A stretch of DNA of 64,000 nt from contig CAKKPE010000138.1 in assembly GCA_919901565.1 (NCBI GenBank), positions 11,936-75,935 on the forward strand, in the 5' to 3' direction. The notes under the pieces were generated by a model. It was given only the letters and a program-made list of their open reading frames with translations. It searched no databases and was not told the origin of the DNA. The stretch comes from a bacterium (GTDB lineage: Bacteria > CG2-30-53-67). Within the stretch, counting starts at the first letter, position 1; the number at the start of each line of letters is the position of its first letter. Positions 1,648 through 55,324 of this stretch are shown in pieces. The position numbers and the translations under genes were made by a program.

Positions 1648-1865
1648 CAGAGAATATTCGGTAACACTTTAAAATTCAGGGTTCAATGCAGGGGGAAAAG
1701 GGAGGACGGGAACAGGATTTTCCTTCTCCCCTTGGGGAGAAGGTTAGGATGAGGGGGCTCTTTCCGGTCAACCCCTCACTATTTCCCTCTGCCTATCATG
1801 GGGAAGAAGGCCTTTTTACGACTTAATCTACAGTTCAACTTAAACACGAAAGAGCAAATATATCT

Positions 1866-9525: not shown

Positions 9526-9635
9526 TAGCAGACTTTTTCAACAGCTCCTCTGACCCCAATTTCACTCTTTCCTTCCTTACTTTCTTTTTCTTTTCATTCT
9601 CCTATAGTGTCGTGTCAACCTTTTAGTGTCACCCC

Positions 9636-9800
9636 CTCATCCTAACCTTCTCCCCTATGGGGAGAAGGAATTTATTGATTGCCCTAAACCTTGTCCCCAA
9701 AGGAACTGAATCTCCATAATTGTGACACAGTCTCTATTGGGATAAGGGATGTTTGACTTCCTCTCCCCTTGGGGAGGATTGAGGGGGGGATACGTCATTT
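9636..9800. repeat. REP-like GC-rich palindromic repeat family, two copies
   Basis: The copies read CCTTCTCCCCtaTGGGGAGAAGG plus a CCCCCTCATCCTAAC module (9640-9680) and CTCTCCCCttGGGGAGG plus a GAGGGGG module (9760-9790). Confidence 0.7.
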
Positions 9801-12635: not shown

Positions 12636-12790
12636 GGGCTGTCCCTTCTCCCCCGATGGGGGAGAAGGTTGGGATGAGGGGTAAAGATTCGATTTTCCCC
12701 CTCACCCCTGATTGATACATTCGAGGGCGGGCCTTTGTCCTCTCCCCCCTGCGGGGGAGAGGAGACTTCTCGATGTAAGTCTTCGCCCAC
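12636..12790. repeat. REP-like palindromic repeat cluster
   Basis: It contains CCCTTCTCCCCCgaTGGGGGAGAAGG, GTTGGGATGAGGGG, CCCTCACCCCTGATTGATACATTCGAGGGCGGGCCTTTGTCC and CTCTCCCCCCtgcGGGGGAGAGG. Confidence 0.7.
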
Positions 12791-13807: not shown

Positions 13808-13985
13808 ATCACCTCTCTCCTCTCCCCGCGGGGGAGAGGAAGTAAGAAGGGATGCCATCTCTCCCCTTGCGGGAGAGGAAGCAAAGAGGGATACAACCTC
13901 TCCCCTTGCGGGAGGGGAAATAAAGAGAGATACTACCACCATATCCCCTTTCCCCTTGTGTGGGGGTTAGGGTGAGGGGGAGAAA
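13808..13985. repeat. Three tandem CTCTCCCC-N-GGGGAGAG hairpins plus GGGTGAGGGGG module (REP-like)
   Basis: The hairpins ctctccccgcgggggagagg, ctctccccttgcgggagagg and ctctccccttgcgggagggg are spaced about 36 bp apart within the kdsA-kdsD intergenic region. Confidence 0.7.
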
Positions 13986-16549: not shown

Positions 16550-17338
16550 CTACCCCTTTTCCAGGCGCTTGGCTTCCTCCCAGAGACGGTCCATATCTTC
16601 AAGAGAGAGCGTATGGAGTTTAAGCCCGTTCCGGACGGCGTACTCTTCGATATGCTGGAACCGGGATATGAAACGCTGTGTGGATTTCTTCAGGGCGTCT
16701 TCCGAACTTACACGGATGAACCGGGAGAGGTTCACCAGGGCGAACAGGATGTCCCCGAGTTCGTGTTCCATTTCAACGGGATCGTTTCCATCCAAGGCAT
16801 GTTTCAACTCCTGAAATTCCTCCTCCACCTTCTTGAGGACCTCGGAGGTTTCTTCCCAGTCAAATCCCACGCGGGCGGCCCGGTCCTGCAGACGGCCCGC
16901 CCTGACCAGGGCCGGAAGGGCCTGCGGAATCCCCTCGAGGATAGACCGACGCTCCTTGCCTTTCCTCTCCTCCCGCTTGATCTGCTCCCATCGGTGGAGC
17001 ACCTCTTCGGCATTCTCCGCCTTCTCATCCCCGAACACGTGAGGGTGCCTCCTCAAAAGCTTTTCGTTGATCCCCCGGACCACATCCTCAAAGGAAAAGG
17101 CCTGGTCCTCCTTCCCGATCTGGGAGAGGAAAACGATCTGCAAAAGCAGGTCCCCCAGCTCCTCAGAGACCCGCCCCTTGTCCCCGCTTTCGATGGCCTC
17201 CAGCACCTCGTAGGTTTCCTCGATCAAAAAAGGTTTGAGTGACTCCATGGTCTGCTTCCTGTCCCAGGGGCAGCCCTTGTCCGAGCGGAGGTGTTCCATG
17301 ATCGAGAGAAGCTTGTCCATTCCGGTTTTGTTATCCAT
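16550..17338 (-). CDS. mazG: Nucleoside triphosphate pyrophosphohydrolase MazG
   Basis: The sequence LLSIMEHLRSDKGCPWDRKQTMESLKPFLIEETYEVLEAIE is followed by a second EExxE repeat in the C-terminal half. Confidence 0.85.
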   Translation of the reverse strand: MDNKTGMDKLLSIMEHLRSDKGCPWDRKQTMESLKPFLIEETYEVLEAIESGDKGRVSEELGDLLLQIVFLSQIGKEDQAFSFEDVVRGINEKLLRRHPHVFGDEKAENAEEVLHRWEQIKREERKGKERRSILEGIPQALPALVRAGRLQDRAARVGFDWEETSEVLKKVEEEFQELKHALDGNDPVEMEHELGDILFALVNLSRFIRVSSEDALKKSTQRFISRFQHIEEYAVRNGLKLHTLSLEDMDRLWEEAKRLEKG

Positions 17339-17387
17339 GGAGGAATCATAAAACTTTCAAGGTGCAGAGTCAATAAACGAATTATGC

Positions 17388-17640
17388 TCATTTCCCCCCT
17401 CACCCCCGATTGATAAATTCGAGGGCAGGCCTTTGTCCTATCCTCATGGAAAGAGGAAGTTCAATTGTCCCTTCTCCCCTGAGGGGAGAAGGTTAGGATG
17501 AGGGGGCTCCTTCCGGTCAACCCCTCACCCTTGCCCTCTCCCCATTCATGGGGAGAGGGTAGCTGCTATGGCCTAATTTTTTCTATGTCCCTTCTCCCCA
17601 TGGGGGAGAAGGTTAGGATGAGGGGGTATTATTATTGCTC
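17388..17640. repeat. REP-like palindromic repeat cluster (four units)
   Basis: The units read GTCCCTTCTCCCCtgaGGGGAGAAGGTTAGGATGAGGGGG, CCCCTCACCCTTGCCCTCTCCCCattcatGGGGAGAGGG and ttctatGTCCCTTCTCCCCatGGGGGAGAAGGTTAGGATGAGGGGG. Confidence 0.75.
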
Positions 17641-17782
17641 CTGAAATAACAAGATGTTATTAGAGCATTTTCATACAGTGCTTCTCCAGCCATAGCTCAA
17701 ATGAAAAATCACTTGCGAAAGCATGAAAATATGGCATAGTATTTACAACGGATATTTAAACCAAAGGAGACGAGATTATTGG

Positions 17783-17995
17783 ATCTTTCGTAAGAAAGTT
17801 AAACGGCCGTAGAAATTAAAGATGAAGAATCAAAAATCAAAATGACAGTGTAAAAATCAAATTTATATTTTTCAATTTTTATATTTTGATTTGTCATTTT
17901 GATTTTTTATATTTGACCCTTGATTCTTAAGATGTGCAAGAAATATTTTAATTTCCAATCTCTGTGTGGTTCAACTTAAACACGAAAGAGAGGAT
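17783..17995. mobile_element. ~200-bp MITE-like element: TIR (CTTTCGT..AAGTT.AAC), AT-rich long palindrome, conserved right module GTGCAAGAA...TTTGATTTCCAAT...GGTTCAACTTAAACACGAAAGAG
   Basis: Copies lie at 29120..29325 and 53285..53488. Palindrome-only copies lie at 36838..36930 and 38935..39040, and a right-end-only copy at 1806..1860. Confidence 0.6.
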
Positions 17996-18000
17996 TTGTT

Positions 18001-19365
18001 ATGAGTTTGAAATCCATCAACCCTGCAACCGGAGACGTTCTCAAGGTCTTTGAAGAATGGACCGACGGCAAGGTCCGCGCCACCCTTGAAGACGTGCACA
18101 AGGCCTTCCTGATCTGGCGGGAGGTTTCTTTCGAGCAGAGGGCGGGCCTCATGAAAAAGGCCGCCGGTCTATTGCGATCCCGTCAGGCTGGATATGCAAA
18201 GACCATGGCCCTGGAGATGGGGAAGCCTGTCACGCAGGGGAGGGCCGAGATCGAGAAGTGCGCCCTGGCCTGCGAGTACTATGCAGAACATGCCGCCGGT
18301 TTTTTAAAGGATGAAATCATCGAATCCGGTGCAGGGAAGAGCTATGTCCGCTTTCCGCCGCTGGGTACCATCCTGGCCGTCATGCCCTGGAACTTTCCGT
18401 TCTGGCAGGTCTTCCGGTTCGCGGCCCCGGCATTGATGGCCGGCAACACCGGTGTCCTCAAGCATGCCTCCAATGTGCCGGAATGCGCGCTCGCCATCGA
18501 AGAGGTCTTCAGGGACGCGGGCTTCCCGGAAAATGTCTTTCGTACCATCCTCATCGGATCATCCGGGGTGGGCCCTGTGATCGGGCACCCCCTAGTCAGG
18601 GCCGTGACCCTGACTGGGAGCGAAGCCGCAGGGCGTAGCGTGGCTGAAAAGGCGGGCAGGGCCTTGAAAAAGACCGTGCTGGAACTCGGCGGGAGTGATC
18701 CATTCATTGTGCTCCCGGATGCGGATCTTGCAAATTGTGTTGCTGTAGCGGCCCAGGCCCGCACCATCAATTCCGGCCAGAGCTGCATCGCCGCCAAACG
18801 GTTCATCGTGGCGGACGCAGCCGCGGATGAATTCCTTGGGCTCTTCCGGAAGAGCATGGAGTCCCTGATTGTGGGCGATCCCCTAAACGAGAAGACCCAG
18901 GTGGGGCCCCAGGCGCGTGAGGATCTGATGCGGGAGCTTCACTCCCAGGTTGAAAAATCCATTGGCATGGGGGCCCGCCTCATCACCGGCGGGAAGCCCC
19001 TGGACCGCCCGGGTTATTTCTATCCCCCCACGATTCTTGAAGACGTGAGGCCGGGCATGCCCGCCTTTGATCAAGAGCTCTTCGGGCCCGTGGCCGCGGT
19101 AGTCCGGGCCAAAGACGAAGATGAGGCCATTGATCTCGCCAACCGCACATCATTCGGACTGGGCGCATCCCTCTGGACACGTGATCAACAAAGAGGCGAG
19201 GCGCTCGCGCATCGCATAGAGGCCGGGGCGGTCTTTGTGAACGGCATGGTGGCAAGCGACCCCAGACTCCCTTTCGGAGGGATCAAGGCCTCAGGCTACG
19301 GCCGAGAACTGTCCCACTACGGCATCAAGGAATTCGTAAACATCCAGACCGTATGGATCAAATAA
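18001..19365 (+). CDS. NAD(P)-dependent aldehyde dehydrogenase (succinate-semialdehyde dehydrogenase-like)
   Basis: The catalytic region ELGGSDP...NSGQSCIAAKR and the 454-aa length match the ALDH family. Confidence 0.85.
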   Translation: MSLKSINPATGDVLKVFEEWTDGKVRATLEDVHKAFLIWREVSFEQRAGLMKKAAGLLRSRQAGYAKTMALEMGKPVTQGRAEIEKCALACEYYAEHAAGFLKDEIIESGAGKSYVRFPPLGTILAVMPWNFPFWQVFRFAAPALMAGNTGVLKHASNVPECALAIEEVFRDAGFPENVFRTILIGSSGVGPVIGHPLVRAVTLTGSEAAGRSVAEKAGRALKKTVLELGGSDPFIVLPDADLANCVAVAAQARTINSGQSCIAAKRFIVADAAADEFLGLFRKSMESLIVGDPLNEKTQVGPQAREDLMRELHSQVEKSIGMGARLITGGKPLDRPGYFYPPTILEDVRPGMPAFDQELFGPVAAVVRAKDEDEAIDLANRTSFGLGASLWTRDQQRGEALAHRIEAGAVFVNGMVASDPRLPFGGIKASGYGRELSHYGIKEFVNIQTVWIK

Positions 19366-20053: not shown

Positions 20054-20310
20054 CAAAAAGGGAGTATGGTGACTACCTTCAGGATATTCTCGATTCCATT
20101 ACCGACATGGACGAATTCGTGCAGGGCATGACATTTGAGACATTCCATAAAGACAAGAAGACAGTGAATGCAGTCATACGGAGCATTGAGATTATAGGTG
20201 AGGCGGCAAAAAACATACCCGCTTCATTCCGAAATCAACATCCAGAAATTCCGTGGAAGAAGATGGCGGGAATGCGCGATAAACTCATCCATGGATACCC
20301 ATCATCCTGA
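20050..20310 (+). CDS. hepT: HepT-like toxin (DUF86, RNase)
   Basis: The DUF86 motif reads [41 protein letters not shown]. There is a 4-bp overlap with the upstream nucleotidyltransferase gene. Confidence 0.7.
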
Positions 20311-20497
20311 CCTTCTCCCCGCAGGGGAGAAGGGACATAAGGAAGAGATCAGGATTAAGATTACGACACAGCCTCGTAGGGGAGAAGTGATCTTCACCGT
20401 TCATCCCCGGATACTCAAGACGAATACTCGTGACATAAAACTCTTGACGTTGCCTGCCTTGAGGATGTCCGCTTGGGGGATAAGATGAACCCGGGTA

Positions 20498-23999: not shown

Positions 24000-24275
24000 G
24001 TTGTTTATTCCTTATGTTCCTTCTCCCTTTGGGGAGAAGGAACCCGAAAGTTTTTAATCTTCTCTATGTCCCTTCTCCCCTTTGGGGAGAGGGGACTTGC
24101 GAGGTTCTAATTTTTCTATGTCCCTTCTCCCCTTTGGGGAGAAGGTTAGGATGAGGGTGGCTCTCTTTCCTGTCAACCCCTCACCCTTGCCCTCCCCGGA
24201 GGGGAGAGGGGACTTGTGGTGATAATCTTTTCTATGTTCCTTCTCCCCTTTGGGGAGAAGGGATCTGAGGGTCCA
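24000..24275. repeat. Tandem array of 4-5 REP-like units (ttctatGTCCCTTCTCCCCtttGGGGAGA...)
   Basis: The units are spaced about 55-60 bp apart. The intervening sequences are partly similar to each other, so this is not a CRISPR array. It lies between addA and the DUF559 gene. Confidence 0.7.
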
Positions 24276-24627: not shown

Positions 24628-24689
24628 GGGTCACCTGCTTTCCCCCCCACCCTTGCCCTCCCCGAAGGGGAGAGGGGACTTGCGAGGAT

Positions 24690-29085: not shown

Positions 29086-29355
29086 AGATTTTCCCCGGAT
29101 GGATGGAAAAAGTGTAGCACAAAATCAGGGCCGTTTAAAGAATAATAGAAATTAAAAATCAAAAATCAAAAATCAATATGACAGAGTAAAAATCAAATTT
29201 TGTATTTTGATTTGTCATTTTGATTTTTTATCTTTGATGTTTGATGCTTCAGGTGCGCAATAAAACCTTTGATTTCCAGTTTTTTACGCGGTTCAGCTTA
29301 AACTCGGAATAGGCAAATATGGCAGATGGATCAGGGGCTTACATCGGAGTTATTG

Positions 29356-36200: not shown

Positions 36201-36949
36201 AATTTGAATACTCCATGATACACAGGTTATAATCTATTATTCTATATTATATTTATGGCATATAAGTGTCAAGTTGTTTCCCCTGCCAAACTGAATGAAC
36301 ATCATAAGAGACGTGATGATATCAGGTGTTATTCATGGGGTTTCTGTTAACCTGTTTCATGAAAGCGGTTGAAGAGAGGCGGTGTGGCTGAATATCCGGA
36401 TAAGTGAAACGCCGCGCCTTTCAGATTATGGTCTTATCCGAACAATGCGGCCCGGCCTGGCTTGATCATCACACAATCCGAACTAATAGAATCTTTTTAA
36501 AGGTTCTGTGGATTTAAAAAGAACCTTGCCGCTGCTTTGCCTGATCCCGTTTATGAAATCGTAAAAATTATGTAACTGTTTGAAATTCAAAGTAATTTAA
36601 GTGATTAAAATATAGGCAAACTGCTCTTTATCCTTGACTGATGCCCTTGCCCTCCGGTTCTTCACACAGATTTTCACAGGCTTTTCACATTTTTTGTGAA
36701 CATCACTCATAACCCTCTAAAATATCATGGGGATTTTTAGATACAGAGATGTGATGGCGTGTGAATCCCGTAAGTCAGGCGGCCGGACGCGGTCCAGGGT
36801 CTCTCGGCCAAAAAAAGTATTTCTTGCACGCATTAAGAATCAAAGATCAAATATAAAAAATCAAAATGACAAATCAAAATATAAAATTTGATTTTTAATC
36901 TGTCATTTTGATCTTTGATTCTTTATCTTTACTTTCTATATCAGAACGG

Positions 36950-38911: not shown

Positions 38912-38989
38912 TTCTTCTCTTCTGTGGAATCCTTATAAATCAAAAATAAAATATCAAAGATCAAAAATACAGAGCAAAAATCAAAATTT

Positions 38990-40135
38990 TTAATTGTCAT
39001 TTTGATTTTTGATATTTAATTCTTGATTTTTATCATACCGCCTGATCTCGCGATAAAGCGTATCCCGTTCCACCGGGACCTTGCCGGCTTTTTGAATCAT
39101 CCGGACCAGGGCCTCCCGGGAGAGGGCCTCGGAGGTCATGGCCCCCGCGGCATGGGTGATCTTTTCCTCCACCACGGTGCCGTCTATATCGTCCACACCG
39201 AAAAGGAGCGAGACCTGCGCTATTTTTTCTCCGAGCATGATCCAGAACGCCTTGATGTGGCTGAAATTATCCAGGAAGATGCGGCTGACTGCCATGGTCT
39301 TGAGGTCGTCGAACCCCGTGGTCATTCCGGTCTGCGGGATGCGCGTATTTTCAGGATGAAAGGCCAGCGGGATAAAGGCCTGGAATCCGCCGGTACGGTC
39401 CTGCAGGTCCCTGAGCCTTGACATGTGGTCGATCCGGGCCCTGGTGTCCTCCACATGGCCATAGAGCATGGTGGCGTTGGATTTGAGGCCTGCGGCATGC
39501 ACCGCCTCCATGATCTCGAGCCACTTCTCCCCGGTGATCTTTTCCGGGCAGATGGACTGCCGGACCCGGGGGTCAAAGATCTCTGCGCCGCCTCCGGGCA
39601 GGGACCCGAGGCCCGCCTGCTTGAGTTCCCGCAGCAGGTCCCCGATGGGGAGTCCGGTGATCCGGCTGAGATAGTCGATCTCCACCGCGGTGAAGGCCTG
39701 GATGTGGATATGCGGGAAGCGCTGCCGGAGCGTGGAAAGGAGATCCAGGTAGTAGTCCAGGGTGAGGTGGGGGTGGAGCCCTCCCACGATATGGAACTCC
39801 GTGGCCCCCTCGGCCGCTCCCTGCTCTGCCTTCTGGATGACCTCGGAGAGGTCCATGGTATAGGCGTCCGGATCCTTCTCATCCCGGCTGAAGGCGCAGA
39901 ACGTGCAGCGGTTCACACAGATATTGGTATGATTGATGTGGCGGTTGACGATAAAGTAAGCCAGGTCCCCGTTTTTGGCCCGGCACCGCATGGAGGCGAT
40001 CTTTCCCAGCCGGATCAGGTCATGCGACGCCATCAGGGCCAATGCCTCGTCAGGGCTGATCCGCAGGCCTTCTTCCACCTTGTTCTGAACAATGTCAAGC
40101 AGGTCCATGGTTTGCTCCATTCCGGGTGGAACCAT
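38990..40135 (-). CDS. Radical-SAM enzyme of the MqnC/MqnE family, paralog of the upstream gene
   Basis: The CxxxCxxC motif is CVNRCTFCAF. It is paralogous to 37835..38911. Confidence 0.7.
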   Translation of the reverse strand: MVPPGMEQTMDLLDIVQNKVEEGLRISPDEALALMASHDLIRLGKIASMRCRAKNGDLAYFIVNRHINHTNICVNRCTFCAFSRDEKDPDAYTMDLSEVIQKAEQGAAEGATEFHIVGGLHPHLTLDYYLDLLSTLRQRFPHIHIQAFTAVEIDYLSRITGLPIGDLLRELKQAGLGSLPGGGAEIFDPRVRQSICPEKITGEKWLEIMEAVHAAGLKSNATMLYGHVEDTRARIDHMSRLRDLQDRTGGFQAFIPLAFHPENTRIPQTGMTTGFDDLKTMAVSRIFLDNFSHIKAFWIMLGEKIAQVSLLFGVDDIDGTVVEEKITHAAGAMTSEALSREALVRMIQKAGKVPVERDTLYREIRRYDKNQELNIKNQNDN

Positions 40136-51136: not shown

Positions 51137-53221
51137 TCATTTTCCCCCCGATCTTGATAAGATTCTTTTTACTTCCTTGCTGTCGGTGAGCGGTTTCTTG
51201 CAGGTGTAATTCCTGCAGATATAGGCCGCGGGCTTGCCTGCCAGCGGGACTTTGCCTGCAAGGAAGGGGATGCCGTCCTCGAGTCCGGTTTGACCTTCCG
51301 GTGCAAATGCCACGACCTTGTTGGGGGCAAAGGGCTCCCGGACCGCCCGGACCATGGATTGCGTGGCCGATTCATCCCGTGTCCCGGTCACGGCGATCTC
51401 CATTGGATCGCTTACAAGGAAGTCCAGCGCGGCAAGACTCTGGGCATAGGCATTCGGCGAATCAGCCATGGAACCCGATATCCGCTGCAGGGTCTTGATC
51501 GCGGCCTCTTTCAATGGTGCTTCACCGGTGAATTCAAAGAGCCTGAGAAGGTTGAGCATGGCCACGGCATTTCCCGAGGGCTTGGCGCCGTCGTGGAACT
51601 CCTTGCTCCGGGCGAGGAGCGCAGGATCTCCATCCCGGGTGAAGAAGAAGCCTCCCTGCTCCGAATCATAGAAGTGCTCCATCATGGCCCGGTTGAGCTC
51701 AAAGGCCCTCCGGATCCATTCCGGGTTGAAGGTGGCCTGGTAGAGTTCAATCAACCCCTGTACGAAAAAGGCGTAATCATCCAGGTACGCCGGGATCCCG
51801 GCTTCTCCGTCCCGGTAGCACCGGAGCAGGCCCTGCTCTGTGAGGAGGCGCCGGACCACAAAGCGGGCGGCCTTTTCTGCAGCCTCGGCGTAACGGCGGT
51901 CATCCAGGACCTGGGCCGCATAGGCCATGGATCCGATCATCATGCCGTTCCAGGCCGTGAGGACCTTGTCGTCCCTGTGGGGCCGGACCCTTTGTGACCG
52001 GGCCTCCATCAGGAGCCTCCGGCCCTGAGAGAGGATTTCATTCAGTTCATTGAGGGGGATGTCCTGTTCCATGGCAAACGCCTCGGGCTCGATCCATTGA
52101 TGCAGGATGCTCCGGCCCCCTTCAAAATTTCCGTCCCTGGTCACACCGTAAAACAGGTTGAAGATTTTTGCGTTACCGGGCCCCAGGATGGATTCAACCT
52201 GTTCCGGCATCCAGACGTAGAAGGCCCCCTCCTCCCCCTCGCTGTCCGCGTCCTCCGCAGAATAGAATCCGCCCTCGGGATCGGTCATATCCCTGAGTAC
52301 ATAATCGAGGATCTCCCGTGCAGTTTCTTTGTATTCGGCCTTGCCCGTGACCTGAAAGGCTTCAACATAGACAAGGGAGAGAACCGCATTGTCATAGAGC
52401 ATCTTCTCGAAATGCGGGACCAGCCACTGTTCGTCCGTGGAATACCGATGGAAGCCGCCGCCGATCTGATCGTAGATCCCTCCCCGGGCCATGGACTCAA
52501 GGGTTTTCTCAACCATGTTCAGGGCCTCAGGCGAGCCGGTCCGGTGGTGATGACGAAGCAGGAAGGAGAGGGCCATCCCCTGTGGGAACTTGGGCGCAGT
52601 CCCGAAGCCGCCGTGCACCGGGTCAAAGTTTCTTGCGATTCCCATGAAGGCCCGGTCCAGCAGTTCCGGCCCGATCTTTGCCTGCGTTTCAGCCGAAGCT
52701 GAGCCTCGGATCACCTAGGTCAGCCGGTCCCCGCTTTTTACGACATCCTGGGGGTTCTCTTTCCAGAGTTTTACGATCTTGGGGAGCAGGGTCGTCATTC
52801 CGGCCCGTCCCCACTTGTCCCGCGGAGGGAAGTAGGTCCCCCCGAAGAAGGGTTTGAGGTCCGGCGTGAGAAAGACGTTCAGGGGCCACCCCCCGCCCCC
52901 GGTCAGGGCCTGCACCGCTGTCATGTAGATCTTATCCAGGTCAGGGCGCTCCTCCCGGTCCACCTTGATGCAGATGAAATCGCGGTTCAGCAGGGCTGCG
53001 ACCTCCTCGTCTTCAAAGGACTCCTCTTCCATCACGTGGCACCAGTGGCACGTGGAATATCCGATGGAGAGGAAGATCAGCCTGTTCTCTTTGCGTGCAC
53101 GATTTAGCGCCCCGGCGCCCCATGGATACCAGTCTACGGGATTGTAGGCATGCTGAAGCAGGTAAGGGCTCTTCTCCCCGATCAGGTGATTGGGCCGTCG
53201 GTGGTTTGGCTGCTTGGTCAT
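51137..53221 (-). pseudogene. DUF255/YyaL thioredoxin-domain protein interrupted by one in-frame TAG
   Basis: The N-terminal part (53221..52718) has the thioredoxin motif CHWCHVM. TAG at 52715..52717 is followed in the same frame by GTG and VIRGSAS...GGFGTAPKFPQGMALSFLL, the continuation of the same family. Confidence 0.6.
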
Positions 53222-53491
53222 GGGGTCTCCTTCTCTTTATTGAACCAGAGACGGCGGTTTCCGTCAATTTGAGAGATTATAAAATTTACGGTACTGTCGT
53301 AAGGAAGTTGAATGGCCATGGAAATCAAGAATAAAAAATCAAACATCAAAATGACAAAGTAAAAATCAAATTTTATATTTTGATTTGTGATTTTGATTTT
53401 TTATATTTGATTTTTGATTCTTAAGGCGTGCAAGAAGTCCTTTGATCTCCAATTTTTGCGTGGTTCAACTTAAACAGGAAAAAGGGAAATG

Positions 53492-55324
53492 TTATGCAGG
53501 TGTGACCGGTATCCTGAACTTAAAGCAGGTCCCTTTGCCGTTCTGCTTTTCCACCCAGATCTTCCCGCCGTGTTTGGCAATGATTTCTCTGGATATCGGG
53601 AGGCCCAGGCCGGTGCCCCCTTTGGCGAATTGAACGTCACTTTCGATCTGCTGGAATTTATCAAAGATCATCTCGTGAAACGCCTCTGGGATCCCTGGTC
53701 CTTGATCGGAGACCGAGATCTCGATCCATTCTGCCGGTTCTGCCGTACCGCCGGCCGGGCCAGGCCCCATGGGTGCTCCGGTCTCTTTGATGCACTCGGC
53801 CTCGATCCTGATCTCACCGCCCGGAGGGGAATAGTTGATGGCGTTCTTGATGAGATTTGAAAAAACCTGCCTCAGACGGTTGGGTTCCGCCAGGATGAGA
53901 GGGATCGTATTTTTTATCGTGGAGCTGATCCGGATATCCTTGATCCTGCATTCCCCCTGATTGATCTGTTCAAATTCCAGGACCATCTCCGAGAGGTTCA
54001 CTTTCTGGAAGCGGTAATGGATCATCCCGCTTTCAAGTTTGGTCAGGTCCAGGTAGTCATTGATCAGGGAGGCCATACGGTCCGCCTCCTTGAGGATGAT
54101 CTCGATGAATTCCCGCTTGGTTTTTTCGTCCTCATCCGGGAAGCGCAGGATCAGGTCCGCATAGGCCTTCACAGAGGTGAGGGGCGTCCGGAGATCATGG
54201 GCCACGGTATCAAGGAAATTTGTCTTTTTCCGGTCCTGTTCCTTTAAAGCCTTGTTGGTCTGTTCCAGCTCTTTGGTTCGTTTTCCCACGGCTTCGGCCA
54301 TGATGTTGAATTTCTGCGAGAGGAGGGCGATCTCATCCTTGCCCCTGGACGTGAGCCGGTATTCATATTCGCCTGATGCGACCCGCTCCGCCCCGCGGCT
54401 TAGATCCTCGATGGGTTTCATGATCCGGTATCCGAGGATCATGGCGATCCAAAACGCGGCCCAGACTATCGCCATCCCGGTCAGGATCATGTTCTGTGAC
54501 ATGGATGAGATGATCGTGTCCAGTCCGAGATAGTTCGGTTCGATCAGGATCGGAAGCCCCAGGTCAGGGATCATGGAGCCGATATTCAGAAGCTGTCCCC
54601 GGTTGTCGATTATCTCCTCAGTGTAAAAAGGATCGTCCCTGTTCACCAACTGTTTTTTATACCATTTGTCCAAATAAGACGGGTACTGATCTGTGCGCTC
54701 TCTTACAGCCGGTTCTTCCAACGTGCCGTAAAGCAGGTTCCCGGACCAGTCCCGGATACAGACACAGGTTTCTTTTAAGGGCCCCCGAAAAACCAGATCG
54801 TCCATGATCTGACGGATCCCCAGGAATATGAACCCTTCTCCTGCAAGGGCCCCTGTTTCATCGTAGAACCTCCTGGATACCCGGAGCAATGAGCGTGTCG
54901 GATCTTTCCTGGGGATGATCCGGAATGCAAGGTTTTTGTCTGACGGGTCCAAATCATTCTCCTCCGGTTCGCTGGCCCAATCGGCTGAGGGATCCCCCGG
55001 GGCAAGGAAGGCGGCGTTCATGATGAATTTTGTCTGTAATATATCGAACATATCTTTTTTTTGTTGAAGTGCATTTGTATCGGGGTTCTTTATGTAAAGG
55101 AGAAAGTCATTAAGAGAGAGATCAGCGAGCTCATCTTTACTATTATTCATGATTTGGGTGAACTGTGTGACAATGAACCTGCTGTACTGCATCGTGGTTT
55201 TTTTCTCGAAGGTACGCATCGGCTCCACTATGGAACTGTATGCGGCCAGGCCGTACAGTAAAGCGGTGAGAATGATCAGGAAGATAAAAGATGTGATGAG
55301 TTTGGCGCGGATCTTCATAGCCAT
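53492..55324 (-). CDS. Sensor histidine kinase (two TM segments, periplasmic domain, HAMP, HisKA, HATPase_c)
   Basis: The H-box reads LDTVAHDLRTPLTSV. The G-boxes read VSDQGPGIP and GTGLGLPISREI. Confidence 0.8.
   Translation of the reverse strand: MAMKIRAKLITSFIFLIILTALLYGLAAYSSIVEPMRTFEKKTTMQYSRFIVTQFTQIMNNSKDELADLSLNDFLLYIKNPDTNALQQKKDMFDILQTKFIMNAAFLAPGDPSADWASEPEENDLDPSDKNLAFRIIPRKDPTRSLLRVSRRFYDETGALAGEGFIFLGIRQIMDDLVFRGPLKETCVCIRDWSGNLLYGTLEEPAVRERTDQYPSYLDKWYKKQLVNRDDPFYTEEIIDNRGQLLNIGSMIPDLGLPILIEPNYLGLDTIISSMSQNMILTGMAIVWAAFWIAMILGYRIMKPIEDLSRGAERVASGEYEYRLTSRGKDEIALLSQKFNIMAEAVGKRTKELEQTNKALKEQDRKKTNFLDTVAHDLRTPLTSVKAYADLILRFPDEDEKTKREFIEIILKEADRMASLINDYLDLTKLESGMIHYRFQKVNLSEMVLEFEQINQGECRIKDIRISSTIKNTIPLILAEPNRLRQVFSNLIKNAINYSPPGGEIRIEAECIKETGAPMGPGPAGGTAEPAEWIEISVSDQGPGIPEAFHEMIFDKFQQIESDVQFAKGGTGLGLPISREIIAKHGGKIWVEKQNGKGTCFKFRIPVTPA

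What the first reader, a model, noticed from the sequence alone, without database searches (positions are those of the whole stretch)
17783..17995. ~200-bp AT-rich MITE-like element whose right end abuts real start codons
- Structure: imperfect TIRs (left cTTTCGTaagaaAGTTaAAC; right GTTcAACTTaaacACGAAAGag), a near-perfect AT-rich palindrome of about 90 bp (aatcaaaaatcaaaatgacaN...tgtcattttgatttttgat), and a conserved right module (GTGCAAGAAaT...TTTGATtTCCAATcT.TG.GTGGTTCAACTTAAACACGAAAGAG).
- Full copies: 17783-17995, 29120-29325, 53285-53488. Palindrome-only: 36838-36930, 38935-39040. Right-end-only: 1806-1860.
- At 17995 and 1860 the element ends 6-12 nt before the ATG of real genes (ALDH and GT4) and supplies the purine-rich RBS.
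- It also contains a TTGATT/TTGATC -35-like hexamer.
- At 29325 and 53488 the same end points antisense into the HD-GYP regulator and histidine kinase genes.
- Possibly a portable promoter/RBS cassette or an antisense-RNA source.
Basis: seen in the sequence. Interest (0 to 1): 0.6.

Follow-up and report, generated by a model that had tools for sequence, protein, structure and literature searches.

The report
Gene-less IVS-type hairpin repeat, cross-phylum
The AT-rich repeat is real, but its core is not private to this genome: it is the gene-less form of a small hairpin cassette that elsewhere carries a "23S rRNA intervening-sequence" four-helix-bundle gene, it occurs almost unchanged in many bacterial phyla, and one copy here has wedged itself between a gene's original ribosome-binding site and its start codon.

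Summary
There are six copies or fragments, all intergenic, about 20% G+C in a 52% G+C window, and none is expected by chance.

The interpretation needs revising.
- The roughly 100-bp palindrome is built of tandem 7-nt units (ATCAAAA / TTTTGAT). A 26-nt stretch of it occurs exactly in at least 95 contigs, labelled as about 17 phylum-level groups.
- In members of one PF05635 subfamily (23S_rRNA_IVP, "four helix bundle protein") the same two arms bracket the gene, and its start codon lies inside the left arm. The window copies are the ORF-less counterparts. In the sample, ORF-less outnumber ORF-bearing copies about 24 to 1.
- Relatives with the same gene order lack the element at three sites, so the copies are insertions.
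- Upstream of the ALDH gene the element sits between the native AAGGAG and the ATG, and its right end now supplies the only nearby Shine-Dalgarno-like tract.
- A conserved native promoter lies upstream of the element. The "portable promoter" and "antisense source" ideas are therefore unnecessary and untested.

The likely molecular behaviour is co-transcription into a 36-38-bp AU hairpin that RNase III would cut, as in 23S IVSs. This is inferred, not shown. How the element moves is unknown.

The parts
17774..17997 (+). Full copy A. It comprises the left outer arm, the AT-rich heptamer-repeat palindrome, the right module and the right outer arm. It lies in the 5' leader of the succinate-semialdehyde dehydrogenase gene (ATG at 18001).
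   Evidence: nhmmer 17769-18001, E 7e-62. It folds as one long hairpin. It is absent from the same leader in relatives L116-L119.
17784..17804 (+). Left outer inverted-repeat arm of copy A (TCTTTCGTAAGAAAGTTAAAC).
   Evidence: pair I6: 21 nt, 76% complementary to 17969-17989.
17814..17925 (.). Core palindrome of copy A, the part conserved across phyla. Its arms are tandem 7-nt units (ATCAAAA / TTTTGAT) around ATGACA...TGTCAT.
   Evidence: I1-I4; 36 pairs, 20% G+C, stops in all frames on both strands; 7-nt periodicity; 26-nt core in at least 95 contigs.
17969..17989 (+). Right outer inverted-repeat arm of copy A. It is the start of the exact 22-mer 17969-17990 that recurs at 1833-1854.
17984..17994 (+). 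Purine tract GAAAGAGAGGA at the right end of copy A. It ends 6 nt before the ALDH ATG and is now the only Shine-Dalgarno-like sequence within reach.
   Evidence: sequence; comparison with relatives. Homologues are also 454 aa, so the start codon is correctly placed.
17713..17769 (+). Context retained upstream of copy A: the native ALDH promoter-like site (TTGCGA 17713-17718, 16 nt, CATAGT 17735-17740) and the native Shine-Dalgarno AAGGAG (17764-17769). AAGGAG now lies 231 nt from the ATG.
   Evidence: 'ATGGCATAGT' and AAGGAG are conserved in L116 (78% aa identity) and L117-L119 (73%). In those loci AAGGAG lies 6-7 nt from the ATG.
53272..53495 (+). Full copy B. It lies in the spacer between the histidine-kinase gene (stop codon 53492-53494, minus strand, inside the last bases of the repeat) and the DUF255/thioredoxin-like gene (start 53221, minus strand).
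   Evidence: (E 9e-67).
29112..29320 (+). Copy C. It has the core and the right module but lacks the left outer arm. It lies in the spacer between the response-regulator/HD-GYP gene (stop 29356, minus strand) and the HD-domain hydrolase gene (start 29085, minus strand).
   Evidence: E 5e-59.
36814..36940 (-). Copy D, in inverted orientation. It has the core and about 25 nt of the right module. It starts about 10 nt after the stop codon of the PNP_UDP_1 gene (36950, minus strand).
   Evidence: E 5e-33. It is absent downstream of the orthologous gene in L102 and L103.
38931..39034 (.). Copy E, core only, at the mqnE/mqnC junction. It replaces the last codons and stop of MqnE, which now ends ...RRYDKNQELNIKNQNDN* at a stop codon inside the element (38990).
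   Evidence: In L103 and L104 the two genes overlap by 11 nt. L102 has a 37-nt spacer. L101 has a different palindrome at this point.
1798..1857 (+). Right-module fragment with no palindrome. It ends 11 nt before the ATG (1866) of a GT4 glycosyltransferase gene and directly follows a GC-rich REP-like repeat.
   Evidence: E 0.004 for the 60 nt; the 22-mer 1833-1854 is exact.

Best explanation
The repeat is the ORF-less form of an 'intervening-sequence-type' hairpin cassette.

**What the cassette is.** The complete cassette is a ~120-residue four-helix-bundle gene (Pfam PF05635, 23S_rRNA_IVP) enclosed by two inverted arms. Each arm is a run of tandem 7-nt units, and the start codon lies inside the left arm. 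In the window the gene is missing and the arms are joined, giving a 36-38-bp AT-rich palindrome of about 100 bp. In three copies this core sits at the tip of a longer, lineage-specific hairpin (outer inverted repeat plus 'right module').

**Shown.**
- The copies are insertions. Relatives with the same gene order lack them.
- They lie in spacers next to stop or start codons, in either orientation.
- They carry stop codons in all six frames, so an insertion at a gene end costs only a short tail, as seen in MqnE.
- At ALDH the insertion separated the native Shine-Dalgarno from the ATG, and the element's own purine tract replaces it.

**Inferred.**
- The copies are transcribed with their neighbours from native promoters and fold into long AU hairpins. 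By analogy with 23S IVSs, RNase III would cut these hairpins and uncouple the flanking cistrons.
- The family behaves as a selfish, horizontally spread element.
- How it moves is unknown. The PF05635 protein acting in trans on the heptamer arms is the obvious candidate.
For: **Repeat is real.** It is far from chance.

**Spread.** The contigs come from CPR groups, Chloroflexota, Nitrospirae, Omnitrophota, Planctomycetota, Chlamydiae, Gamma- and Deltaproteobacteria and others, and several MAGs have 3-8 hit contigs.

**Link to PF05635.**
- The same arms bracket PF05635 ORFs in L012, L029 and L090 (intact), L093 (internally deleted), L094 (frameshifted), L105, L106 (between gatA and gatB) and L108-L115.
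- 27 of 38 subfamily proteins begin MQND, which is ATGCAAAATGACA, the arm sequence. Five begin MT.(K/Q)N, which is ATGACAAATCAAAAT.
- The subfamily has 2899 clusters at E <= 1e-10.
- Of 99 occurrences of the 26-mer, 3 carry an intact ORF, 1 a decayed one and 95 none.
- An HMM built only from the window copies hits these cassette arms.

**Parallel with a documented 23S IVS (PMC4990558).** The Coxiella IVS has inverted repeats forming the stem, tandem heptamers before the S23p start codon whose number varies between strains, and RNase III excision. Here heptamer number also varies between near-identical loci L108, L109 and L114.

**Empty sites.** These are the mqnE/mqnC junction and the PNP-clpB spacer and the ALDH leader.

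**Family habit.** Only 3 of 77 elements are spanned by a long ORF. Flanking ORFs are co-directional in 44, convergent in 4 and divergent in 5. There is no strand bias in folding energy (20 of 44).

**Hairpins.** They have 36-38 pairs, dG of -24 to -32 kcal/mol and stops in all frames. 25 of 34 family members fold better than half-shuffled controls, with median z of -3.2.
Against: - No PF05635 gene lies in the window, and the rest of the source genome could not be searched. A partner in trans is therefore unverified.
- Whether the ORF was lost from the hairpin or gained by it rests mainly on two decaying intermediates (L093, L094).
- RNAalifold finds no consensus structure across phyla. Some lineages, such as Dehalococcoidia, have poorly complementary arms. 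The conserved feature may therefore be the heptamer arms rather than the hairpin.
- No copy of this family was seen inside an rRNA gene.
- RNase III cleavage and co-transcription are analogies, not observations.
- No target-site duplication or defined end could be established.
- The outer modules were found only in the window and in L068. They may be a separate repeat.
- MAG taxonomic labels can be wrong through mis-binning.
Confidence: 0.7

Rival explanations
1. It is a classical MITE: a deletion derivative of a DDE-transposase insertion sequence. The transposase would mobilise it in trans by recognising the outer terminal inverted repeats (CTTTCGT...AGTTAAAC / GTTCAACT...ACGAAAG).
For: - It is small, ORF-less and multi-copy, with 21-nt imperfect terminal inverted repeats.
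- It shows insertion polymorphism against relatives.
- Short-read assemblies break inside it (L096; L068).
Against: - No target-site duplication is recognisable.
- Two of five palindromes lack the outer repeats, and one lacks the left one.
- The only ORF-bearing relatives of the conserved core encode PF05635, which is not a transposase.
- The outer module was found in only one other contig (L068) and in no metagenome record.
- No transposase lies in the window next to any copy.
Confidence: 0.12
2. It is a portable expression cassette kept for its function. An outward promoter and Shine-Dalgarno at the right end would drive ALDH and GT4 and make antisense RNAs against the 3' ends of the HK and RR genes.
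For: - The right end carries a purine tract 6-11 nt before an ATG in all four copies that have it.
- The ALDH copy has demonstrably replaced the native Shine-Dalgarno.
- Sigma-70-like matches are enriched in the element: 8 found against 1.4 expected. TTGATT-16-TATATT in the right arm is shared by copies A and B.
Against: - The native ALDH promoter-like site, conserved in three lineages, is retained upstream.
- The right-module hexamer TTGATT/TTGATC has no conserved -10 partner.
- Promoter-like matches are expected in 20% G+C DNA and differ between copies.
- The family inserts in either orientation and mostly between co-directional genes.
- The HK and RR geometry is simply a spacer position.
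- Survival of only those insertions that preserve translation would give the same picture.
Confidence: 0.1
3. It is a host-selected cis element rather than a mobile one. Candidates are an intercistronic RNA processing or stability hairpin, a terminator, or an array of sites for a DNA-binding protein, with conservation due to that function.
For: - A 26-nt core is held exactly across phyla.
- The copies lie between co-directional genes.
- The hairpins are long and stable.
- The 7-nt periodicity would suit a repeat-binding protein.
Against: - Orthologous sites in close relatives lack it.
- It is unrelated to the function of the flanking genes.
- It shows no orientation preference and no strand bias in stability.
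- It has no G+C-rich stem or T-tract, and the terminator scan found none.
- There is no Rfam match even at E of 5.
- RNAalifold gives no consensus structure.
- Its composition is foreign to a 52% G+C genome.
Confidence: 0.08
4. The ~215-bp 'full copy' is not one element but two. On this reading a lineage-specific hairpin repeat (outer arms plus right module) received the cross-phylum AT-rich palindrome in its apical loop, much as 23S IVSs sit at the tips of helices 25 and 45, and the composite then spread. This concerns architecture only and is compatible with the best explanation.
For: - The right module occurs without a palindrome at 1798-1857, and the palindrome occurs without outer arms at 38931-39034.
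- Cross-phylum conservation stops at the core, HMM positions ~50-155.
- The core lies exactly at the tip of the outer stem.
Against: - The junctions between core and outer parts are the same in copies A, B and C, and partly in D and L068. A single composite that later suffered truncations explains the data equally well.
- No outer module with an empty loop was found.
Confidence: 0.3

Closest known systems
23S rRNA intervening sequences carrying an S23p/PF05635 ORF (Coxiella burnetii, Leptospira; PMC4990558)
   Same: - Inverted repeats form a long stem.
- Tandem heptamers lie at the 5' side around the ORF start, and their number varies between strains.
- A PF05635 four-helix-bundle ORF sits in the loop of the complete form.
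- Distribution is sporadic and suggests horizontal transfer.
- ORF decay is seen.
   Different: - The copies here lie in spacers of protein-coding operons, not in helix 25 or 45 of 23S rRNA.
- The window copies have no ORF.
- The heptamer is ATCAAAA rather than GACAGAT.
- Copy number is high, and the sequence is held across phyla.
- RNase III excision is not shown.
Correia elements (NEMIS) of Neisseria. The comparison rests on general knowledge, not on a test here.
   Same: - They are ~100-200-bp ORF-less palindromic insertions with terminal inverted repeats.
- They lie in spacers next to genes and are co-transcribed into hairpins that RNase III cuts.
- They are sometimes reported to provide promoter elements.
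   Different: - Correia elements are confined to one genus, have a TA duplication and defined 26-bp ends, and carry an IHF site.
- Here there is no definable duplication, the arms are heptamer repeats, the family crosses phyla, and an ORF-bearing relative encodes PF05635.
REP/BIME and ERIC-type intergenic palindromes. The comparison rests on general knowledge.
   Same: - They are short, imperfect palindromes in transcribed spacers between co-directional genes.
- They occur in many copies per genome.
- They can affect mRNA stability.
   Different: - REPs are G+C-rich, lineage-specific and tied to a RAYT (IS200/IS605-like) transposase.
- This core is 20% G+C and crosses phyla.
- The window does hold a separate G+C-rich REP-like family.
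Avd / PF05635 proteins of diversity-generating retroelements, and the uncharacterised pentamers PDB 2RLD and 2GSC
   Same: The ORF of the complete cassette belongs to the same Pfam family. Its nearest solved relative is 2RLD (E 7e-13).
   Different: No reverse transcriptase, template repeat or variable repeat lies near any cassette examined. The function of stand-alone PF05635 proteins is unknown.

Membership tests
23S rRNA IVS element (S23p/PF05635 type) | Flanking inverted repeats that form a long stem | tested here: met
   36-38 pairs in each window copy; 25 of 34 family members fold better than half-shuffled controls.
23S rRNA IVS element (S23p/PF05635 type) | Tandem heptameric repeats in the arm next to the ORF start, variable in number | tested here: met
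   lag-7 autocorrelation of 0.56-0.76; copy number differs among L108, L109 and L114.
23S rRNA IVS element (S23p/PF05635 type) | PF05635 ORF in the loop | tested here: not met
   There is no PF05635 ORF in the window. The feature is met in homologous-arm cassettes elsewhere, so the window copies are ORF-less relatives.
23S rRNA IVS element (S23p/PF05635 type) | Location in helix 25 or 45 of a 23S rRNA gene | tested here: not met
   The window has no rRNA. No 23S or 16S signature was found in any of the loci fetched by then, L001-L098. The copies lie between protein-coding genes.
23S rRNA IVS element (S23p/PF05635 type) | Excision from the transcript by RNase III | not testable with these tools
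   This needs RNA end mapping or an in vitro cleavage assay.
MITE (non-autonomous DNA transposon) | Terminal inverted repeats, small size, no ORF, many copies | tested here: met
MITE (non-autonomous DNA transposon) | Target-site duplication flanking each copy | tested here: inconclusive
   The ends are AT-rich repeats. Comparison with empty sites fixes the insertion points only to within a few bases. No duplicated flank is seen. GAGATTAT, shared by two left flanks, looks like element sequence.
MITE (non-autonomous DNA transposon) | A transposase-encoding parent with the same termini | tested here: not met
   The ORF-bearing relatives encode PF05635 only. No transposase adjoins any copy. The full source genome could not be searched.
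Correia / NEMIS | Neisseria-type 26-bp ends, TA duplication, IHF site | tested here: not met
   The sequence is unrelated. No WATCAANNNNTTR match is kept across copies (inspection).
Intrinsic terminator | G+C-rich stem followed by a T run | tested here: not met
   There were 0 terminator-like sites in the three element regions. The stems are 18-21% G+C.
Sigma-70 promoter carried by the element | -35 and -10 hexamers with 16-18-nt spacing, conserved between copies, with a transcription start | tested here: inconclusive
   TTGATT-16-TATATT (9 of 12) is shared by copies A and B. Copy C has other matches. No start-site data exist. The native promoter is retained upstream of copy A.
Any Rfam family | Covariance-model match | tested here: not met
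   There were no hits at gathering score in the window. There were no hits at E <= 5 on the element, and only chance-level hits on a complete cassette.

The most novel reading that the evidence does not exclude
PF05635 four-helix-bundle genes enclosed by subfamily-specific tandem-heptamer inverted repeats may form a distinct class of mobile element that crosses phyla. On this reading:
- the long-unexplained 23S rRNA 'intervening sequences' are merely its rRNA-resident members;
- the pentameric protein recognises the heptamer arms of its own cassette, as DNA or RNA;
- that protein mobilises or maintains both the complete cassettes and the far more numerous ORF-less derivatives, such as the five in this window.
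Probability: 0.3. Interest if true: 0.85.

Novelty: new variant of a known kind. Interest (0 to 1): 0.62.

Why it matters
The origin and mobility of 23S rRNA intervening sequences and the function of the widespread PF05635 "four helix bundle" proteins have been open since about 1990. PMC4990558 still calls the functionality and origin of IVSs unclear.

This window links three things:
- a multi-copy ORF-less hairpin in ordinary operons;
- a large PF05635 subfamily whose start codon lies in the same hairpin arm;
- the IVS architecture.

That link gives a tractable system:
- the same arms occur with and without the gene;
- filled and empty sites are available in related genomes;
- there is a clear candidate protein-nucleic-acid pair to test.

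It also matters for annotation and assembly. These elements break short-read assemblies, extend or truncate gene ends (MqnE here), and can displace a ribosome-binding site (ALDH here).

Tried and rejected
- **Metagenome scans for the right module.** The first found nothing. The second, degenerate scan gave two hits, both inside coding sequence and judged to be chance. The outer module was found outside the window only in L068.
- **blastn of the element.** There was no match against plasmids or phages. The low-complexity filter may contribute. IMG/VR held only 2 exact core matches, so the family is not mainly phage-borne.
- **Rfam.** Searches at gathering and at permissive thresholds found nothing. 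No tRNAs were found.
- **Sigma-54 reading of the right module and of ATGGCATAGT.** The spacing and the -12 GC are not met, by inspection.
- **IHF consensus.** It is not kept across copies.
- **Strand-specific RNA selection.** There is no bias in folding energy towards the sense strand (20 of 44). RNAalifold gave no consensus structure. Transferring one copy's fold to the alignment was abandoned, because register slips among heptamers make column pairing unreliable.
- **Target-site duplications.** None could be defined.
- **PF05635 remnants.** None were found in the window or in the longer loops of other loci. Only L093 shows one.
- **rRNA context.** None of the fetched loci lies in an rRNA gene.
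- **Literature.** Searches by sequence, family name and topic found no description of this family. The searched library is incomplete.
Full report
**1. The observation**

The window is 52% G+C. The element at 17783-17995 is about 20% G+C. BLAST of 17760-18010 against the window recovers these copies:
- 53294-53496 (78% identity over 219 nt);
- 29146-29312 (75%);
- 36814-36938 (inverted, 81%);
- 38931-39031 (78%);
- an exact 22-mer at 1833-1854.

Pattern searches with up to 3 mismatches find the same sites, against 0 expected in dinucleotide-preserving shuffles. An nhmmer model built from the three full copies finds no further copy in the window.

The outer pair is 17784-17804 / 17969-17989 (21 nt, 76%), and the core arms are 40-44 nt at 73-81%. 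The whole ~215-nt unit folds into one long hairpin, with the outer arms closing it. Each core alone forms 36-38 pairs with dG of -24 to -32 kcal/mol. All copies lie between ORFs with good Pfam support.

**2. The core is not specific to this genome**

I took a 26-nt stretch of the right arm, TTGTSATTTTGATTTTTKATMTTTRA, and scanned one genome per species of GTDB. By the submitters' labels these are:
- many CPR/Patescibacteria groups;
- Dehalococcoidia and Chloroflexia;
- Nitrospirae, Omnitrophota and Phycisphaerales;
- Chlamydiae, Actinomycetota, Aminicenantia and Latescibacterota;
- WOR-3, Deferribacteres and Bdellovibrionales;
- Gamma- and Deltaproteobacteria;
- one Pacearchaeota bin.

Several MAGs contribute 3-8 contigs each. 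Flanking genes differ from locus to locus, and host G+C ranges from 31 to 56%, so this is neither one contaminating sequence nor vertical descent.

In nearly all loci the matched arm has an A-rich partner arm 20-180 nt upstream. 25 of 34 such hairpins fold better than controls in which each half was shuffled separately, with median z of -3.2. Only 2 matches occur among 2.9 million viral contigs. Rfam has nothing, even at permissive thresholds. Full-text searches by sequence and by topic found no description.

**3. What the arms belong to**

In L012, L029 and L090 the two arms enclose a 123-126-residue ORF that matches Pfam PF05635, 23S_rRNA_IVP ('four helix bundle protein'), at E of 1e-19 to 1e-21.
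- The start codon lies inside the left arm (...AAAATCAAAATGGAAAATGACAGTGCAAAA...).
- The right arm begins directly after the stop codon.
- L093 holds an internally deleted copy and L094 a frameshifted one.

A search with the L029 protein finds 2899 clusters at E <= 1e-10. Members looked up on their contigs have the same arms. These are L105, L106 (inserted between gatA and gatB of a Sedimentisphaerales MAG) and L108-L115. Of 38 subfamily proteins, 27 start MQND, which is ATGCAAAATGACA, the arm itself. Five start MT.(K/Q)N, which is ATGACAAATCAAAAT. The association is therefore built into the gene and is not an accident of neighbouring insertions.

Among 99 occurrences of the 26-mer, 3 have the intact ORF, 1 a remnant and 95 none. 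The ORF-less form is the common one. The window has no PF05635 ORF.

**4. A general architecture, and its known relative**

Other PF05635 genes that happen to lie in the fetched loci are also flanked by inverted repeats made of tandem ~7-nt units, but of different sequence:
- CATGAAA in L029 4923-5291;
- AATTAGG in L006;
- AAACATN in L005.

The window arms show the same 7-nt period. The number of units differs among the near-identical loci L108, L109 and L114.

This matches what is published for the Coxiella burnetii 23S rRNA intervening sequence (PMC4990558, read):
- a stem formed by inverted repeats;
- tandem heptamers (GACAGAT) just before the S23p start codon, two or three depending on the strain;
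- an S23p (PF05635) ORF undergoing decay;
- excision by RNase III.

The window repeat is thus best placed as an ORF-less, non-rRNA relative of IVS-type cassettes. It is not a member of the 23S IVS class in the strict sense. None of the loci scanned (L001-L098) lies in an rRNA gene, and the window copies lack the ORF.

**5. The copies are insertions**

MqnE homologues identify contigs with the same gene order, mqnE-mqnC-PNP-clpB.
- In L103 and L104 (79% identity) mqnE and mqnC overlap by 11 nt.
- In L102 (81%) they are 37 nt apart.
- In the window the core copy 38931-39034 sits there. It has replaced the last codons of MqnE, which now ends ...RRYDKNQELNIKNQNDN* at a stop inside the element. L101, L103 and L102 end ...RRYDNEN*...RRYNVA* and ...RRYPEEDIPIPHL*.
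- L101 (89%) carries a different, G+C-richer palindrome of repeated ~8-nt units at the same junction.

Downstream of the PNP gene, L102 and L103 lack copy D.

Across the fetched loci, only 3 of 77 elements are spanned by a long ORF. Flanks are co-directional in 44, convergent in 4 and divergent in 5. The sense strand is not the more stable one more often than chance (20 of 44). The family therefore prefers, or survives in, spacers of tandem genes in either orientation. Every window core has stop codons in all three frames on both strands. That limits the damage of landing on a gene end.

**6. The claim about start codons**

The ALDH product is 454 aa, like its homologues, so ATG 18001 is the true start.

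In L116 (78%) and L117-L119 (73%) the leader reads as follows:
- a promoter-like site, of which the -10 region 'ATGGCATAGT' is conserved in all three lineages and the -35 hexamer TTGCGA (16-nt spacer) in L117-L119;
- 27-32 nt;
- AAGGAG;
- 6-7 nt;
- ATG.

The window keeps TTGCGA (17713-17718), CATAGT (17735-17740) and AAGGAG (17764-17769). After two more bases the element begins, and the ATG follows its right end.

The native Shine-Dalgarno now lies 231 nt from the start codon. The only purine tract in range is the element's GAAAGAGAGGA (17984-17994, 6-nt spacer). It also shows that the native promoter is still in place, so the whole hairpin should be part of the ALDH leader.

The same terminal tract followed by an ATG is present in copies B and C and in the fragment at 1798-1857, which precedes the GT4 gene. 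Whether this reflects a built-in feature or survival of the fittest insertions cannot be decided here.

**7. Promoter and antisense ideas**

Sigma-70-like matches are more frequent in the element than in shuffles: 8 against 1.4 in 17300-18100. No terminator-like site is present.

At HK and RR the right end faces the stop codons. This is because the element occupies the spacers HK to DUF255 and RR to HD hydrolase on the minus strand. These ideas remain untested and are not needed to explain the layout.

**8. How it most likely works**

*Shown.* The repeat is a multi-copy, ORF-less, hairpin-forming insertion. It is homologous to the arms of PF05635 cassettes, and it lies in transcribed spacers. 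One copy has altered a protein C-terminus and another has displaced a ribosome-binding site.

*Inferred.*
- The copies are transcribed with their neighbours and form 36-38-bp AU helices. Such helices are the kind of substrate RNase III cuts in 23S IVSs, and cutting would separate the fates of the upstream and downstream cistrons.
- The element spreads horizontally as a selfish unit.
- The mechanism of movement is unknown. Each PF05635 subfamily seen here has its own heptamer, which makes the protein the natural candidate for recognising the arms, but nothing here tests that.

*Unresolved.* I could not tell whether the ~215-bp unit is one element or the cross-phylum core nested in the loop of a lineage-specific hairpin. 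The junctions are identical in copies A-C and in L068. The modules also occur separately, at 1798-1857 and 38931-39034.

**9. Verdict**

The finding is real and more interesting than a private MITE. Its core belongs to a family that crosses phyla and is tied to the IVS/PF05635 cassette. I found no description of that family in the searched literature.

I rate it a new variant of a known kind, an IVS-type hairpin element that is ORF-less and lies outside rRNA. Interest is 0.62. Confidence in the identity is about 0.7. Confidence in the RNase III step is lower, and I make no claim about the transposition mechanism.

Noticed in passing
window 1722-1757, 9632-9670, 12640-12681, 13947-13980, 17470-17506, 17521-17559, 17590-17626, 20298-20337, 24014-24261, 24642-24679: There is a second, unrelated repeat family. 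It is a G+C-rich palindromic unit of about 38 nt (CCCTTCTCCCC..GGGGAGAAGGTTAGGATGAGGGGG), single or clustered, in intergenic positions, and looks REP/BIME-like. It lies just upstream of both the 1798-1857 fragment and copy A. The Logan contig L096 ends near one of these repeats and, at its other end, inside the AT-rich element.
   Followed up: partly
L101 1185-1375: In the closest relative (MqnE 89% identical), the mqnE/mqnC junction holds a different palindrome made of repeated ~8-nt units (gggtcccagggttcaagggttccag ... cttgaaccctggaatcctcgaaccc). It sits at the same place as window copy E. The junction seems to be a hot spot for hairpin insertions of this architecture.
   Followed up: partly
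L029 4923-5291; L006 1607-2002; L005 2513-2989; L031 7698-8000: PF05635 genes of other subfamilies are flanked by inverted repeats built of other tandem ~7-nt units (CATGAAA, AATTAGG, AAACATN). This suggests that each protein subfamily travels with its own heptamer.
   Followed up: partly
L108, L109, L114 (3' arm after position 1878): Near-identical loci from different hot-spring metagenomes differ only in the number of TTTTGAT/ATTTGAT units in the right arm. The arms therefore gain and lose units quickly, as reported for the Coxiella IVS.
   Followed up: no
window 52715-52717: The DUF255/thioredoxin-like gene is split by an in-frame TAG (...DRLT*VIRG...) into ORFs 52715-53221 and 51137-52714. 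The orthologue in L103 is a single 741-residue product. This could be a pseudogene, a sequencing error or a read-through site.
   Followed up: no
window 36210-36700 (minus strand), compared with L102 9700-10385 and L103 13300-13928: The long clpB leader has two conserved features across the three genomes. One is a near-consensus TTGACA-17-TATAAT promoter. The other is a conserved block of repeated TGTGAAAA/TGTGGAAA motifs about 450 nt upstream (ttcacaaaaaatgtgaaaagcctgtgaaaatctgtgtgaag), which could be a regulator-binding array or a small RNA.
   Followed up: no
L003, L011, L019, L025, L034, L044, L058, L075 (MAG CAZPNF01): In one uncultured-bacterium MAG the AT-rich arm is followed in at least 8 contigs by the same ~70-nt sequence (tctttgatttctcttatgtgcatgcatgataaatacacttattaaaaacttgactcaaaatttcaaatta). 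This is another lineage-specific outer module attached to the same core, parallel to the window's right module.
   Followed up: no
window 17390-17443 and 12692-12745: There is a further 54-nt direct repeat (91% identical) in two intergenic regions, next to the G+C-rich palindromes.
   Followed up: no
L056, L059, L074, L095: Nearly identical loci carrying the core are binned as Minisyncoccales, Saccharibacteria and a Pacearchaeota archaeon. This could be a shared mobile contig or mis-binning, so the archaeal occurrence should not be taken at face value.
   Followed up: no
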